A DNA stretch of 64,000 nt from Chthoniobacterales bacterium (GTDB lineage Bacteria > Verrucomicrobiota > Verrucomicrobiia > Chthoniobacterales > UBA6821), in contig JAIEQL010000032.1 in NCBI GenBank assembly GCA_019747735.1, positions 6,159-70,158 on the forward strand, read 5' to 3'. A program made the position numbers and the translations under genes. Positions 26,103 to 30,100 of this stretch are shown here, in pieces (positions within the stretch are counted from its first letter, which is position 1; every line of letters begins with the position of its first letter). The notes below the pieces were generated by a model. It worked only from the letters and a program-made list of their open reading frames with translations. It searched no databases and was not told the DNA's origin.

Positions 26103-26669
26103 ATGATCCGGATTCGTCCTCTCCTTTTTTCATTTTTTTGCTTCATAGCCATAACCCTTCCCCTGCGCGCCCGTGAAATGGCTAGTGGCGCTATCCAGGC
26201 TCTTCGCGAAGCTGGTCGCCCCGAACTCCTCCTTGGTCTTGCTGAAGTTAAGGGAGAACATGGAGATCCTAATCCTGAAGAATGGATTTTGCTCTGCAAT
26301 GACTCAAGCGCTCCAAGTGGGATTCGGGAACTCATCATTAAAGATCATCACATCATTTCAGAAAGCACCCCCACAGTTGCTTTTAGCGGCACAGGAGCCT
26401 TACCTCAACTTGACTTAAGCAAGCCGCTCATGGAATCAGGAGCTCTCTTTGCCGCTGCCAACCGCAGCGCCATCGATCATCATATCGGATTTGATTATGT
26501 TAATTACTCCTTGCGAATCGATGCCGTCACCGGAAAGCCACTGTGGATTGCGAAACTTTATAAGATCAGCAAAAAAGGAGATAAGCATAAGGATGGCAAA
26601 AAGGAAGATAAGCTTGTCGGGACTCTGCAATTCTCCGCAGAGACAGGAGCAGAAGCGAAGGGGTTGTAG
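26103..26669 (+). CDS. hypothetical exported protein
   Basis: Signal-peptide-like N-terminus, 188 aa, no family recognised. Confidence 0.7.
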   Translation: MIRIRPLLFSFFCFIAITLPLRAREMASGAIQALREAGRPELLLGLAEVKGEHGDPNPEEWILLCNDSSAPSGIRELIIKDHHIISESTPTVAFSGTGALPQLDLSKPLMESGALFAAANRSAIDHHIGFDYVNYSLRIDAVTGKPLWIAKLYKISKKGDKHKDGKKEDKLVGTLQFSAETGAEAKGL

Positions 26670-26743
26670 GAGTGTTGCTGAGCAAGTCAGCAACACTAGT
26701 TCACAGTCTTCAATTTTTAACTTCAACTAGTTTGGAAAAATCC

Positions 26744-27715
26744 ATGACCCTCGTCCTTCTCGCAGCAGGCCTCGGAAGCCGTTATGGCGGGCTCAAACAG
26801 CTCACTCCCGTGGGACCGAAGGGAGAGGTGCTGCTCGATTATTCGGTGCGAGATGCCGTCAAGGCCGGCTTTTCAGAAATTGTTTTTATTATTCGAAGAG
26901 AGATTGAAGAGCTCTTTCAACAAAAAATTCTTTCTCGCTACCAAACTCTTTTTCCTGGTCTCATCATCCGCTACGTCTTTCAGGAACTCACTGATCTAGT
27001 TCCCCCTCACTTCTCCATCACACGGACTAAGCCATGGGGCACTGGTCATGCCTTGTTAGCAGCACGCCATGTTGTCACGACTCCTTTTGCGGTGATTAAC
27101 GCTGATGATTACTATGGTCCCACAGGCTTTGTGCTCCTCAAAAAGTTTTTTGAGAATTTCAGAAAAGGGGTCAGCACCAGTCAATTTGCAGACGCAGTCG
27201 CCAATTGCGGGACTGACCCTTTTTCTGAATACGCCATGGTCGCCTATGAGCTTGGCAAGACGCTTAGCGAGCATGGAAGCGTCTCTCGCGGCATTTGTGA
27301 AACTAGCAAAGGGGTCAGTACCAGTCAATTTGCAGACACAGTGGCCAATTGCGGGACTGACCCCTTTTTCCTCACTACCATTACCGAGCGCACCGCTATT
27401 GAGCGGACATCCCATGGGATTGTTGCTCAAGAAAAAGAGGGACAACTCATTCCTTTGAAAGAAGAGACTTGGGTCTCGCTCAACTTCTGGGGCTTCACAC
27501 CAGCCTTCTTCGCTCAACTCGAAGAAAAATTTTCTCAGTTTTTAGAAAAAGAAAAAAACTTAACAACTACTGAATTTTATCTCCCTCAAGCCATCAACGA
27601 CCTCATCCAGGAAAAACGGGCCTCTGTGCAGCTTTTCCCAACTCCTGATCGCTGGATGGGGCTGACTTATCCAGAGGATCTGGCTGTGGTGCAGGAAGCG
27701 TTAAGAAATCAATAA
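26744..27715 (+). CDS. sugar-phosphate nucleotidyltransferase family protein with two 20-aa palindrome-derived inserts
   Basis: LAAGLGSRYGGLKQ, KPWGTGHA, VINADDYYG, NFWGFTP, EFYLP, W.G.TY.ED. Confidence 0.9.
   Translation: MTLVLLAAGLGSRYGGLKQLTPVGPKGEVLLDYSVRDAVKAGFSEIVFIIRREIEELFQQKILSRYQTLFPGLIIRYVFQELTDLVPPHFSITRTKPWGTGHALLAARHVVTTPFAVINADDYYGPTGFVLLKKFFENFRKGVSTSQFADAVANCGTDPFSEYAMVAYELGKTLSEHGSVSRGICETSKGVSTSQFADTVANCGTDPFFLTTITERTAIERTSHGIVAQEKEGQLIPLKEETWVSLNFWGFTPAFFAQLEEKFSQFLEKEKNLTTTEFYLPQAINDLIQEKRASVQLFPTPDRWMGLTYPEDLAVVQEALRNQ
27164..27223. repeat. intragenic 60-bp palindromic element, copy 1
   Basis: aaaggggtcag...ctgaccctttt encodes KGVSTSQFADAVANCGTDPF in frame. Confidence 0.95.
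27308..27367. repeat. intragenic 60-bp palindromic element, copy 2
   Basis: Perfect 12-bp arms aaaggggtcagt/actgaccccttt; 56/60 identical to copy 1. Confidence 0.95.
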
Positions 27716-27745
27716 AACATCAACAAGGCCACAAATAGGGTGTCT

Positions 27746-30010
27746 TTATTTTTGGTACTGAGAAGGAGTAAAAGAATTTACTGGTCTCTTTATTCGGTTT
27801 GAGCGTCTTGTTTCTAGAGGGGGCTGTTGTTGAGTTTCATAATCAGCAGGGCTAAAAAATTTTGCCTGTCTCAGTATCCGTCCTTTCAACGTTGTTTTGG
27901 GAGCATTACTATTTTTATTAGAGTCTTGTTCTGGAAGAGGAGTGTAAGGGGCTGTATGAATTAATCCAATCAATTCGTTAGGATCATTCACTGATGGAGT
28001 CCCTGATGGAGTCCGACTCAACTCATGAGTCGGTATAACAGCTTGAGACTCAGTCAAACTGGACGAAGAACCCCGAGGTGATTCGTTAGAAAGATTATCT
28101 GTTGAATTTGAGAGCACAATCGAGCCATCACCTGGAAGGCTTACTGGGTTTCCTGTGCCGACATCATTTGCTGTTTGGTTAAAGCGAGGGGAATCTACAG
28201 AGTCTTCTCTATCAGAATCAGAATCAGAATCATATCGAGGAGAACCTGGAGGATTTATACGGGAACTACTTGTTCTGTTGTAACGAGTTGGACGCTCTAG
28301 CGCATCGTCCTTGTTCCACCATTTCTTTATTGTGTTCCACAAGAACGCCGCAATGACGCTTGCAGGTAAAAAATGCCCTATATTCCATTCCCCTGACTCT
28401 AATTTTTTCTCTTGGTGGCCTTGAGCCTGTTCCTTAAAAACTGTTTCATTGCTTGAAGCCTCTGGATGTTTTTCTTCAATAGGCCCTCCATTTTCTGAAA
28501 CAGAAGAATCATTAGCCACTCTTTTTAATTCTTCGAGGACTTCTTTGGGAAGCTTTTCTTCAGGTTGTGAAGAATTATTATCTCCCTTTTGACTCAATTT
28601 GCCTTTCTCATCTAGAGTTTCTAAAAATGCCAAAACATCATAATCCGTCGTAGTTAATGGGTAGGCACCATGAGAAGTTATAGAAATAAAATTGCTTGGA
28701 GACTCTTGATCATGATGAGCTGAGTTACCTCCTTGAAAACGGCTCTTTATCTGAATTACTGGTTCGTCAGAACCAGATTCAGTCATAGGAATAAAACTTC
28801 TTAGAGACGCTTGATTATGATGAGCCGAGTTACCTCCTTCAAAAGAGCCCGTTATCTCAATTGCTGACTCGTTATAATGAGTTCCAGTTCTAGAAATAAC
28901 CTGACTTAAAGACCCTTGATCATGATGTGCCGAGTTACCTCCTTTAAAAGGGTCCGTGATCTTAATTGCTGAGTTGTTATCATGAGTTCCAGCTATAGAA
29001 ACCCAATCTTGATTATCTTGGTCCACAGGACGCCTAATATACTTGCTTAGAACCTGGTTACGTTCTTTCACCCCATCTAAATGAACATAAGGATGGAAAA
29101 ATACCGAATCGCCAGGTGTTAGTACGGGAAGCTTAGAATTCACGTAATTCATCAAGGGTTTATAATCAAGCTGACTAAAGATCGTGACAAGACCTAGTAG
29201 AGTAGTAGTCCTAAGTAGTTGTAGTCGCTTTGACCCAGGGAAATGGGTACGCGTATCATTTTTGTTTTTATTAACTTGTTCATTTGTTTTGACAGGCACT
29301 GCTTCTGGATCATTTCTATTTGCATGAAACTCACCCTCTTCTTCAAATTTACTTTTTGTATTTGATAATATTAGTTCTTTAAAAAGATGTTTGGAGGGTT
29401 CTTCCTGATTGCGGGTTATATCATTCTGGGAAGAGCTTTTTACAATATCTTCGAGTTGACTCACCAAATCAGAAGTGACCTCAATAAGTTGTTCTAGCTT
29501 CTGCTGAACTGAAAGGTCCAAATCGCTAGAAGCGCTAGAAACTAATTTTTCAAGATTGTTATATTTCTGTTGGTATCTCTCTAGATTGTAAGACGATAGC
29601 AGTAGATCGTCTTGAATGTCTCTTAGATTCACTGTTACATTTGAAGAGGAAACATTTCCTAGCTCTTCTTTAGCCTCTTCTATTTTTGTATCTAGCACTC
29701 CTACATCAAAAAGATCCTCAGCCTCACTATCAGTATCTTTCGAAGAATCTGACTCACCAGCAACACTCTCCTCATCATGATCACTTCCTTCCTCTTTTAA
29801 TAGCGTCTTATTAGAAACCGGAATAGCATAGGAAGCATGACTGGTGAGAGCCTTCTCCTGTGCTTTTTTACTAGCTTCTTGCACATTATCTTTTTCAACG
29901 GACTCACCCCCATTTTCACCTTCTTTTTTCCCCTCCATCACTGCCACAGAGAGGCGTGATGAGGCGATCAAGAGGGTAATTAAAAATAATAATAGAGAGA
30001 TTTTTTTCAC
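27746..30010 (-). CDS. orphan signal-peptide-bearing low-complexity protein with three 35-aa repeats
   Basis: Long ORF; GTG 30010 gives VKKISLLLFLITLL. It has acidic and coiled-coil regions, two short hydrophobic stretches and 105-bp repeats. Confidence 0.8.
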   Translation of the reverse strand: MKKISLLLFLITLLIASSRLSVAVMEGKKEGENGGESVEKDNVQEASKKAQEKALTSHASYAIPVSNKTLLKEEGSDHDEESVAGESDSSKDTDSEAEDLFDVGVLDTKIEEAKEELGNVSSSNVTVNLRDIQDDLLLSSYNLERYQQKYNNLEKLVSSASSDLDLSVQQKLEQLIEVTSDLVSQLEDIVKSSSQNDITRNQEEPSKHLFKELILSNTKSKFEEEGEFHANRNDPEAVPVKTNEQVNKNKNDTRTHFPGSKRLQLLRTTTLLGLVTIFSQLDYKPLMNYVNSKLPVLTPGDSVFFHPYVHLDGVKERNQVLSKYIRRPVDQDNQDWVSIAGTHDNNSAIKITDPFKGGNSAHHDQGSLSQVISRTGTHYNESAIEITGSFEGGNSAHHNQASLRSFIPMTESGSDEPVIQIKSRFQGGNSAHHDQESPSNFISITSHGAYPLTTTDYDVLAFLETLDEKGKLSQKGDNNSSQPEEKLPKEVLEELKRVANDSSVSENGGPIEEKHPEASSNETVFKEQAQGHQEKKLESGEWNIGHFLPASVIAAFLWNTIKKWWNKDDALERPTRYNRTSSSRINPPGSPRYDSDSDSDREDSVDSPRFNQTANDVGTGNPVSLPGDGSIVLSNSTDNLSNESPRGSSSSLTESQAVIPTHELSRTPSGTPSVNDPNELIGLIHTAPYTPLPEQDSNKNSNAPKTTLKGRILRQAKFFSPADYETQQQPPLETRRSNRIKRPVNSFTPSQYQK
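28680..28998 (-). repeat. intragenic tandem repeat, 3 x 105 bp
   Basis: The anchor tgat.atgatg.gc.gagttacctcctt starts at 28707, 28812 and 28917 and encodes GGNSAHH(D/N)Q. Confidence 0.9.
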
Positions 30011-30100
30011 GATTCTTAGTAAATAAATTTGGGAGTTGAGAAGAATACTTTTTTTGGCTGATAAAGCAAGAGAATATCTCAAAATAGAGATTTTTTCTCT

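What the first reader, a model, noticed from the sequence alone, without database searches (positions are those of the whole stretch)
27158..27367. A 60-bp DNA hairpin inserted in frame twice into one enzyme, adding the same 20-aa peptide at two loops
Seen: two 60-bp copies starting 144 bp apart, with arms aaaggggtcag/ctgaccc(c/t)ttt. Both read in frame as KGVSTSQFAD(A/T)VANCGTDPF in an otherwise intact nucleotidyltransferase. They are separated by 28 unrelated family-typical residues (SEYAMVAYELGKTLSEHGSVSRGICETS), so this is not a tandem duplication. Three of the four differences are synonymous third-position changes, and the element is stop-free in at least three frames. Known: Rickettsia palindromic elements insert into proteins this way but are larger and do not resemble this sequence. 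Inference: a small REP-like mobile hairpin that builds new surface loops, possibly now under protein-level selection (only 4 substitutions, so weak support).
Basis: partly seen in the sequence, partly recalled or inferred. Interest (0 to 1): 0.85.

Follow-up and report, generated by a model that had tools for sequence, protein, structure and literature searches.

The report
Mobile DNA hairpin inserted twice in-frame
A 60-base palindromic mobile element has landed twice, in frame, in two loops of one sugar-nucleotide enzyme of a small freshwater bacterium; it is real, but this kind of event has already been described in other bacteria.

Summary
Two 60-bp hairpin-forming copies (window 27164-27223 and 27308-27367) sit in frame in an otherwise intact nucleotidyltransferase gene (26744-27715). 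None of 24 aligned orthologues and none of the 14 closest database homologues has either 20-residue peptide. The same element occurs 11 times in this 1.9-Mb Verrucomicrobia (Chthoniobacterales) genome, including one in-frame copy in dnaX. It is confined to one genus: 6 of 301 genomes searched in the order.

It belongs to a larger set of palindromes that all end in GGGGTCAG. Five 1.1-kb units bounded by such ends encode RAYT-like Y1/HUH tyrosine transposases. These match the "TIRYT/TIRtron" class, with end motif GGGGWSAS, described by Di Nocera et al. 2013. That paper also reports intragenic REP dimers encoding 20-30 residues, sometimes twice in one gene, including in a verrucomicrobium.

So this is a new member of a known kind. 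Other GGGGTCAG palindromes here lie in frame in queA, mutL, ribD, aroE, a PP2C phosphatase and a prepilin peptidase.

Three points remain open or fail. Mobilisation by the Y1 transposases is inferred, and no transposase flanked by this exact subfamily was found. Protein-level selection is not supported. The three stop-free frames are what chance gives.

The parts
26744..27715 (+). Host gene: a 323-aa sugar-phosphate nucleotidyltransferase-like enzyme. It is intact, with no stops or frameshifts.
   Evidence: ORF. Pfam NTP_transf_3 30.1 bits (cut-off 27). PDB 3pnn by profile, E 1.6e-101. AF2 model pLDDT 81.6 and pTM 0.85. Foldseek 3pnn TM 0.80/0.85. It keeps all 90 columns that are invariant among 15 homologues.
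27164..27223 (+). Insert 1: a 60-bp head-to-head palindromic dimer read as residues 141-160. The perfect palindrome extends to 27158-27229 (72 bp).
   Evidence: Net +20 aa against the closest homologues. It lies between helix 126-140 and strand 162-169, with pLDDT 47-57.
27224..27307 (+). Host spacer: 84 bp, 28 residues, the conserved core of the enzyme family.
   Evidence: It aligns to all 24 orthologues and all 14 database homologues. This rules out a tandem duplication.
27308..27367 (+). Insert 2: the second 60-bp copy, read as residues 189-208.
   Evidence: Net +17 aa against the closest homologues. It lies at the turn between strands 180-187 and 208-222, with pLDDT 59-69.

Best explanation
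The two copies are non-autonomous palindromic mobile elements of the REPIN type. Each is a head-to-head dimer of two roughly 27-nt terminal-inverted-repeat units, and each unit carries the end tag GGGGTCAG.

In this genome that tag is shared by many palindrome subfamilies. It is also shared by the inverted ends of five 1.1-kb units that encode RAYT-like Y1 (HUH) tyrosine transposases of the TIRYT/TIRtron class, whose published end motif is GGGGWSAS.

The likely mechanism, which is inferred, runs as follows. One of these transposases recognises the tagged hairpin on single-stranded DNA, cuts it, and pastes it elsewhere without a target-site duplication.

Insertions into genes survive only under three conditions: the length added is a multiple of three, the frame used has no stop, and the site is a permissive loop or linker. 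In this enzyme both sites are loops that vary in length in other lineages.

The result is an intact enzyme carrying two copies of the same 20-residue, probably flexible, peptide. The peptide is most likely a tolerated passenger rather than a functional module.
For: SHOWN

(1) Insertion, not ancestry. 0 of 24 aligned orthologues and 0 of the 14 best of 8000 scored database homologues have either peptide. The conserved 28-residue spacer aligns throughout.

(2) Dispersed family. There are 11 copies in the 1.9-Mb genome. Three are in verified genes: this gene twice, and the dnaX linker once in the same reading frame. Eight lie in ORFs of 124 aa or less.

(3) Patchy, genus-limited spread. The element is found in 6 of 13 genomes of the genus, 0 of 23 of the sister genus, and 6 of 301 genomes of the order.

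(4) In relatives it sits in frame in real genes and in three different frames or strands. These genes are a GHMP kinase (the same site in two species), amino-acid permeases, GcpE, Fmt, a Laminin_G_3 protein and a family of large secreted-looking proteins.

(5) Strong hairpins, z = -5.3 to -7.1.

(6) The GGGGTCAG tag ends many palindrome subfamilies.

(7) There are five intact ORFs of 315-351 aa, each with a GGGGTCAG-tagged repeat just outside at least one end. The tags lie in inverted orientation at both ends for 4 of the 5. All five match Pfam Y1_Tnp at 43.5-49.7 bits (cut-off 23). Their best NCBIfam hit is REP-associated tyrosine transposase at 48-64 bits. All five keep the H-x-H motif and a D-Y-x-H-L-N-P tyrosine.

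(8) No consistent target-site duplication. Direct flanking repeats of 5 bp or more occur in 0 of 37 dimers.

(9) Nine of 37 dimers of the superfamily lie inside or between Pfam domains of single ORFs: queA, PP2C, ribD, mutL, aroE, an A24 peptidase, dnaX, and this gene twice.

(10) The inserts map to loops of a confidently modelled core. Other lineages carry unrelated, non-palindromic extra residues at the same two sites.

FROM PRINT

Passages of PMC3733652 and PMC6006769 describe TIRYTs with GGGG[AT][CG]A[CG] ends, families of TIR dimers, and intragenic REP dimers.
Against: - No Y1 transposase gene is flanked by the arms of this particular subfamily. I inspected 5 intact genes in this genome and loci at 16 matches in five relatives. 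Cross-mobilisation through the shared tag is an assumption.
- No empty-site allele was seen (table 5: no joints), so the exact insertion boundaries and the event itself are inferred from comparison at 68% aa identity or less.
- Site 2 is a net +17 residues, not +20, so a small host deletion or loop remodelling must be assumed.
- The transposases score below NCBIfam's curated cut-off (80 bits), and no C-terminal HTH was detected by Pfam at E <= 0.05.
- Nothing here shows transcription, translation or activity of the decorated enzyme.
- The genome is a 57-contig metagenome-type assembly, and copies at contig ends may be missed.
Confidence: 0.8

Rival explanations
1. The elements spread without a dedicated transposase. 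Copies are pasted by recombination or gene conversion between dispersed palindromes, or by template switching at hairpins during replication. The Y1 genes merely share the same end motif.
For: - No cognate transposase was found for this subfamily.
- The two gene copies share one private base (GCC where 19 of 19 other aligned copies have GCA), as gene conversion between them would give.
- Partial tandem copies occur in dnaX.
- Chimeric junctions occur between different tagged units on contigs C16, C4, C46 and C7.
Against: - Insertion into unrelated genes needs a mechanism that does not depend on homology.
- Whole units with both tags are found at every site.
- The tag is exactly the one at the ends of the Y1 units.
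- Y1 enzymes of this class are reported to cut and rejoin such hairpins. This is discussed in PMC3733652 (passages); I did not read the primary biochemistry.
Confidence: 0.1
2. The element is a classical MITE moved by a DDE transposase that recognises the GGGG-starting inverted ends, for instance a Tn3-like end.
For: It has terminal inverted repeats, it is small, and it has no coding capacity of its own. That Tn3-family ends begin with GGGG is recalled, not tested.
Against: - There is no consistent target-site duplication: 0 of 37 with 5 bp or more.
- The long units bounded by the same ends encode Y1_Tnp proteins, not DDE enzymes. This holds for 4 units with both tagged ends; a fifth has one tagged end.
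- I did not scan the genome systematically for DDE transposases.
Confidence: 0.04
3. The 20-residue peptide has been co-opted. The two new loops are now kept by selection on the protein, for example as an interaction or regulatory surface.
For: - Three of 4 differences between the copies are synonymous, P = 0.04-0.07 under neutrality.
- Inserts of the family are retained across species in a GHMP kinase and in a family of large proteins.
- The same reading frame is used in this gene and in dnaX.
Against: - Two of the 4 differences match variants that segregate among other family members, so they may predate insertion.
- In the insert shared by G010 and G012, 2 of 2 differences are non-synonymous. 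Its 97% DNA identity is not clearly above the gene's 91%.
- Other copies are read in other frames and on the other strand.
- The inserts are modelled with low confidence, pLDDT 47-69.
- There are too few substitutions for any dN/dS test.
Confidence: 0.08
4. Assembly artefact: a repeat was collapsed or mis-joined into the gene in a metagenome bin.
For: The genome is a fragmented metagenome-type assembly of 57 contigs. Repeat copies attract extra contig depth at the two inserts (table 2).
Against: - Contigs of 6646 and 6648 nt from two runs span 26600-27800 with 0 differences and 0 gaps, although these may be source data.
- In a second study, contigs bridge the left junction of insert 1 (27082-27249) and the right junction of insert 2 (27316-27624).
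- The reading frame is kept through both inserts.
Confidence: 0.01

Closest known systems
TIRtrons / TIRYT (TIR-associated tyrosine transposases) and their TIR-repeat families: Di Nocera, De Gregorio & Rocco 2013, BMC Genomics 14:522 (PMC3733652, passages read). This is TnpA-Y1 subclass 2.1 of Quentin et al. 2018 (PMC6006769, passages read).
   Same: - RAYT-like Y1/HUH proteins much longer than the 121-position core.
- They are bounded by long inverted repeats whose ends fit GGGGWSAS; GGGGTCAG fits.
- There are several diverged copies per genome, each with its own inverted repeats.
- The inverted repeats also occur as dispersed families, mostly as dimers.
   Different: - The passages I read report intragenic copies for GTAG and CGTC REPs, not for TIR repeats. 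Here 9 of 37 TIR dimers are in frame inside genes. Their Additional files 3 and 5 could not be seen and may bear on this.
- The C-terminal HTH reported for subclass 2.1 was not detected by Pfam here.
- The host is an uncultured Chthoniobacterales lineage.
Intragenic REPs (GTAG/CGTC-tagged), e.g. in Opitutus terrae and Rickettsia conorii: PMC3733652.
   Same: - Palindromic repeat dimers lie entirely within ORFs and add 20-30 residues.
- Some ORFs are hit twice.
- Many hits are in replication, repair and RNA-modification genes. Here these are dnaX, mutL, queA and a pseudouridine-synthase ORF.
- One example is a verrucomicrobium.
   Different: The end tag here is GGGGTCAG, not GTAG or CGTC. The units are about 27 nt without a hairpin of their own, and only the dimer folds.
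Rickettsia palindromic elements (RPE). These are described in PMC3733652 (passages) and in the MITE review PMC10969869 (passages). The original Ogata et al. papers were not read.
   Same: Palindromic repeats are inserted in frame into unrelated housekeeping genes. They are tolerated at sites compatible with the fold. A sizeable share of copies is intragenic.
   Different: - RPEs are reported as about 150 bp (RPE-1) or CGTC-tagged, with no dedicated transposase known.
- Here the element is 60 bp, GGGGTCAG-tagged and linked by its tag to Y1 transposase genes.
- No sequence comparison with RPEs was run.
REPIN-RAYT systems of Pseudomonas and E. coli: Bertels & Rainey 2011, PMC3116915 (search listing and abstract only).
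   Same: Hairpin-forming doublets of inverted short repeats are associated with a Y1 transposase flanked by the same repeats. The systems are confined to a lineage.
   Different: - Classical REPINs are overwhelmingly extragenic and GTAG-tagged, and their RAYT is usually single-copy.
- Here there are five diverged transposase copies, a different tag and many intragenic copies.
- The proteins fall below the NCBIfam RayT cut-off.

Membership tests
TIRtron / TIRYT system (PMC3733652; subclass 2.1 of PMC6006769) | Y1 (IS200-like) core with an HUH motif and a catalytic tyrosine | tested here: met
   5 of 5 proteins match PF01797 at 43.5-49.7 bits against a cut-off of 23. H60-x-H62 and D120-Y121-x-H-L-N-P are invariant in all five. 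That this tyrosine is the catalytic one is recalled from the family, not tested.
TIRtron / TIRYT system (PMC3733652; subclass 2.1 of PMC6006769) | The gene is bounded by long terminal inverted repeats whose ends fit GGGGWSAS | tested here: met
   Both ends are tagged GGGGTCAG in inverted orientation for the units on C53, C52 and C48. On C49 there is one single end plus a 40-bp dimer. On C54 only one end was found. The same holds in relatives, loci L089, L091, L094, L099, L103 and L104.
TIRtron / TIRYT system (PMC3733652; subclass 2.1 of PMC6006769) | C-terminal extension with an HTH (Bac_DnaA_C / HTH_23 / HTH_28) | tested here: inconclusive
   The extension is present: the proteins are 315-351 aa and the core ends near residue 145. 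No HTH family was reported by Pfam at E <= 0.05. No profile-profile or fold comparison was run.
TIRtron / TIRYT system (PMC3733652; subclass 2.1 of PMC6006769) | The focal 60-bp element is made of the inverted repeats of one of these transposase genes | tested here: not met
   It shares only the 8-12-nt tag. No Y1 gene flanked by its specific arms was found among 5 intact genes in this genome and loci at 16 matches in 5 relatives. The assemblies are fragmented, so absence is not shown.
Classical REP/REPIN-RAYT | Conserved GTAG tetranucleotide at one end of the unit | tested here: not met
   The end consensus is (A)AA-GGGGTCAG-T-CC. Only a few copies happen to have GTAG overlapping the first G.
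Classical REP/REPIN-RAYT | The transposase passes the RayT equivalog model | tested here: not met
   NF047646 is the best hit, but at 48.3-64.1 bits against a cut-off of 80.
Classical REP/REPIN-RAYT | Inverted doublets that fold into a hairpin and are dispersed in many copies | tested here: met
   Hairpins with z = -5.3 to -7.1. There are 11 copies of the subfamily and 37 non-nested dimers of the superfamily.
Rickettsia palindromic elements | In-frame insertion into unrelated housekeeping ORFs | tested here: met
Rickettsia palindromic elements | RPE sequence families: CGTC tag or the ~150-bp RPE-1 consensus | tested here: not met
   The tag and length differ. The RPE features are taken from passages of PMC3733652 and PMC10969869. 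No RPE sequence was aligned.
DDE-type MITE | Target-site duplication flanking the inverted repeats | tested here: not met
   Direct flanking repeats were found in 5, 3, 2, 0 and 0 of 37 dimers for 2, 3, 4, 5 and 6 bp. The numbers expected by chance are 2.3, 0.6, 0.14, 0.04 and 0.01. The pattern is not consistent.
Sugar-phosphate nucleotidyltransferase fold (host gene; 3pnn-like) | Family profile match and fold | tested here: met
   PF12804 at 30.1 bits, above its cut-off of 27. 3pnn by profile at E 1.6e-101. Foldseek TM 0.80/0.85 with 42% identity. The substrate is unknown. Source names such as 'UTP-glucose-1-phosphate uridylyltransferase' are untested annotations.

The most novel reading that the evidence does not exclude
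In this genus, GGGGTCAG-tagged hairpins moved by TIRYT-type Y1 transposases are a regular source of new protein loops. At least eight housekeeping genes of one 1.9-Mb genome are decorated. Some inserts are inherited through speciation and gene duplication. The palindromic ends give the same peptide borders in either orientation.

This would be the first case where RPE-like 'protein decoration' can be tied to an identifiable transposase. Some inserts, such as the paired loops in this enzyme, may then have been co-opted.
Probability: 0.2. Interest if true: 0.65.

Novelty: new member of a known kind. Interest (0 to 1): 0.42.

Why it matters
In-frame palindromic insertions are a rare way of adding peptide segments to essential proteins. 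They are best known from Rickettsia, where no transposase has been linked to them.

Here the same outcome is seen in a free-living, small-genome freshwater verrucomicrobium. The elements carry the end tag of RAYT-like Y1 transposase genes present in the same genome. That makes the mechanism testable with purified enzyme and tagged single-stranded oligonucleotides. The paired inserts in one small enzyme with a solved homologue (3pnn) give a simple system for asking how such inserts are tolerated.

It also matters for annotation. Alignment gaps of 13-36 residues in queA, mutL, ribD, aroE, dnaX and this gene are mobile DNA, not lineage-specific domains.

Tried and rejected
- **Stop-free frames as a design feature: rejected.** Three open frames of six is the chance expectation.
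- **Protein-level selection from 3 of 4 synonymous differences: not upheld**.
- **Old decayed copies of the element at the same loops in relatives: no support.** The extra residues in relatives G004, G003 and G011 (site 1) and G007 (site 2) show no palindrome and no paired tags.
- **Known RNA family: none.** Rfam gave 0 matches in the whole window at gathering score and 0 in 27000-27500 at E <= 1.
- **Cognate transposase for the focal subfamily: not found**.
- **Empty-site allele in public runs: none seen.** No joints were reported. Contigs of the second study cover only parts of the gene at depth 2.5-4.4.
- **Expression:** no RNA holder is listed among the runs.
- **Literature:**
  - The search for the two end motifs as strings returned only unrelated primer-type hits in the 10 of 87 papers listed.
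  - The search for 'TIRYT/TIRtron' found 3 papers, of which 2 were listed.
  - I found no paper on intragenic TIR repeats or on this lineage.
  - Supplements of PMC3733652 (list of intragenic REPs, TIRYT alignment) are closed and may already hold comparable cases.
- **Rows left out of the orthologue alignment:** one search matched 34 relatives and 24 were aligned.
  - Not aligned were G002 (a fragment at a contig end), G017, G023, G025, G026, G027, G028, G032, G033 and G038.
  - Where the match is a single piece, it spans 834-918 nt against 969 nt here, so none of those can hold both inserts.
- **How the list of 37 dimers was made:** I started from the 42 pairs. I dropped 6 nested or overlapping pairs and 2 poor ones (C32:4185, C7:4797). 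I added 3 focal-family copies that the arm filter had missed (C53:33325, C51:65244, C41:34483).
Full report
**1. What is in the sequence**

- The window holds an ORF at 26744-27715 (+) of 323 aa from its ATG.
- It matches NTP_transf_3 at 30.1 bits (cut-off 27). It matches NTP_transferase just under that family's cut-off.
- Inside the ORF, the repeat finder reports two direct copies of 64 nt at 27161-27224 and 27305-27368. They are 92% identical and their starts are 144 bp apart. Each has inverted arms.
- The exact 60-mer is not expected by chance: 0.00 matches in 100 shuffles.
- As single-stranded DNA the copies fold into hairpins of -21.7 and -18.1 kcal/mol, with z = -6.9 and -5.3.
- Both are read in the gene's frame as residues 141-160 and 189-208.
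- The 60-bp cores differ at four positions, three of them synonymous.

**2. Are they insertions?**

- I searched the protein in 40 related genomes. 34 relatives had a match and I aligned 24 orthologues.
- None of the 24 has either peptide. The 28-residue stretch between the two copies aligns in all of them.
- A search of the 5.8-billion-protein collection scored 8000 candidates. The best non-self hit is 62% identical by BLASTP. None of the 14 best that I aligned has the peptides.
- Against the closest homologues, site 1 is a net +20 residues and site 2 a net +17.
- Both sites vary in length in other lineages. G004, G003, G011 and G001 have unrelated extra residues at site 1, and G007 has 22 at site 2. 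The four of these stretches that I checked (G001's was not checked) show no palindrome and no paired tags.
- The solved homologue 3pnn (profile E 1.6e-101) has no inserts.

**3. Is it real DNA?**

- Contigs of 6646 and 6648 nt from two public runs span 26600-27800 with no differences. These runs may be the source of the assembly.
- In a second study, a 168-nt contig (27082-27249, 3 differences) bridges the left junction of insert 1. Its right side has only 26 letters, under the tool's 31-letter rule.
- In the same study, a 312-nt contig (27316-27624, 7 differences) bridges the right junction of insert 2.
- No joined empty-site form was reported.

**4. The element is a dispersed family**

- The window's own genome is 1.9 Mb in 57 contigs, with 43.5% G+C.
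- It holds 11 copies at E < 1e-8.
- Three are in verified genes: two here, and one in the linker of dnaX after domain III. The dnaX copy is read in the same frame and has partial tandem copies next to it.
- The other eight lie in ORFs of 124 aa or less.
- Most of the eight intergenic copies have longer outer arms than the two in this gene, and a perfect inner stem. Both copies in this gene break that stem at one shared private base: GCC where 19 of 19 other aligned copies have GCA.
- The family occurs in 6 of 13 genomes of the genus and 0 of 23 of the sister genus. It occurs in 6 of 301 genomes sampled from the order, that is 1 of 82 genera.
- Names attached to homologues place the lineage in Verrucomicrobia, order Chthoniobacterales.

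**5. In relatives it is again inside genes**

Copies in congeners lie in frame in the following genes:

- a GHMP kinase, at the same site in G010 and G012;
- two amino-acid permeases;
- GcpE and Fmt, both read from the opposite strand;
- a Laminin_G_3 protein;
- a family of large proteins without a Pfam match in G009 and G010.

Three different frames or strands are used. The GHMP-kinase insert is 97% identical between the two species, against 91% for the rest of the gene. Both of its differences change the residue.

**6. What moves it**

- The 8-mer GGGGTCAG occurs 133 times on both strands. My own rough estimate of the chance number is about 30.
- The 7-mer GGGTCAG occurs 212 times against 150 expected.
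- The excess comes from palindromes. Grouping the sites by the sequence next to the tag gives about twenty subfamilies of two or more sites. Among them are a 40-bp one (24 arms), an 88-bp one (19 arms) and a 76-bp one (14 arms).
- Some inverted pairs of tags are about 1.1 kb apart and enclose an ORF.
- tblastn finds five intact copies and one remnant.
- All five proteins (315-351 aa) match Y1_Tnp at 43.5-49.7 bits (cut-off 23). Their best NCBIfam model is the REP-associated tyrosine transposase, at 48-64 bits, which is below its cut-off of 80.
- They keep H-x-H and D-Y-x-H-L-N-P.
- They are only 38-65% identical to one another, and each has its own inverted repeats.
- One such unit lies on the same contig, about 1.5 kb beyond the window's end (C53:71643-72725).
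- Relatives have the same arrangement.
- None of the inspected genes is flanked by the arms of the focal subfamily.
- There is no consistent target-site duplication around 37 dimers.

**7. A genome-wide habit**

- Of the 37 non-nested dimers, 9 lie inside or between the Pfam domains of one ORF. These are queA, a PP2C phosphatase, ribD, mutL, aroE, an A24 prepilin peptidase, dnaX, and this gene twice.
- Five more are near ORF starts or in an ORF with no family.
- I did not check orthologues of those other genes.

**8. Structure**

- The AlphaFold model has pLDDT 81.6 and pTM 0.85, from a 15-sequence alignment.
- Insert 1 lies between helix 126-140 and strand 162-169.
- Insert 2 lies at the turn between strands 180-187 and 208-222.
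- The inserts have pLDDT 47-69, while the neighbouring blocks are 85-91.
- The model matches 3pnn with TM 0.80/0.85.

**9. What is known**

- Passages of Di Nocera et al. 2013 (PMC3733652) report the following:
  - REPs lie inside genes in several species, most of all in Opitutus terrae (Verrucomicrobia) and R. conorii.
  - Some ORFs are hit twice.
  - Many hits are in replication and repair genes.
- The same paper defines TIRtrons and TIRYTs. These are RAYT-like genes bounded by long inverted repeats that share GGGGWSAS, and whose repeats form dispersed dimer families.
- Quentin et al. 2018 (PMC6006769) equate TIRYTs with TnpA-Y1 subclass 2.1. They quote the end consensus GGGG[AT][CG]A[CG].
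- A 2024 review (PMC10969869) summarises in-frame RPEs.

GGGGTCAG fits the published motif. The finding is therefore a new member of a known kind. The modest new point is that TIR-type dimers, not only GTAG or CGTC REPs, sit in frame in genes, and that they do so here at a high rate in a small genome. I could not see that paper's supplements.

**10. Weighing the side claims**

- *Open frames.* Three open frames is the chance expectation.
- *Synonymous differences.* The bias gives P = 0.04-0.07. However, the AGC/AGT and GCA/ACA differences match variants present in other family members. The two copies may therefore come from different source copies rather than having diverged in place.
- *Shared private base.* This base instead suggests a common source or gene conversion. 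I cannot decide between these.

**11. Verdict**

- Mobilisation by Y1 transposases is inferred from the shared tag and from published work on the class.
- Co-option of the peptide is unsupported.
- Interest is moderate.

Noticed in passing
G000 contig C53:71643-72725 (about 1.5 kb beyond the window's end; locus L084): A 1.1-kb unit bounded by inverted GGGGTCAG-tagged repeats. It encodes a 337-aa Y1_Tnp (RAYT-like/TIRYT) protein and lies on the same contig as the finding, about 38 kb downstream. Four more intact copies lie on C52, C48, C49 and C54, and a remnant lies on C11.
   Followed up: yes
G000 loci L105-L114 (C16:9175, C40:36874, C49:26137, C52:13261, C52:16538, C55:97884, C41:34483): Other GGGGTCAG palindromes (40-bp and 109-bp types) lie in frame inside queA, a PP2C phosphatase, ribD, mutL, aroE, an A24 prepilin peptidase and dnaX. 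Orthologues of these genes were not checked for the matching gaps.
   Followed up: partly
G000 C16:4145-4442, C46:35790-36343, C4:1-132, C7:4793-4972: In four places the focal element is joined directly to the inner part of the inverted repeat of a different tagged repeat family, at the tag. This forms 300-550-bp composite repeats. It looks like cutting and rejoining at the tags, or nested insertion.
   Followed up: partly
G000 C49:24385-25514 (locus L087): One Y1 transposase gene has a single tagged repeat on one side and a complete 40-bp palindromic dimer on the other. That dimer lies at the start of the ribD ORF.
   Followed up: no
relatives G009 (L057, L058, L076) and G010 (L073): A family of large proteins has an N-terminal signal-like segment and C-terminal tandem repeats of about 55 residues. 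They carry the element-derived peptide at the same position in three paralogues and in a second species, so the insert predates the duplication and the speciation.
   Followed up: partly
window 27746-30082 (-): A 778-aa ORF directly downstream on the other strand. It is rich in Ser/Asn/Glu and has a thrice-repeated segment ending in a G-G-N-S-A-H-H motif. It was not searched against any family.
   Followed up: no
relatives G010/G012, GHMP-kinase ORFs (L063, L064): Besides the element, these kinases carry a further stretch of about 60 residues between the N- and C-terminal GHMP domains. It looks like another lineage-specific insertion, and its origin was not examined.
   Followed up: no
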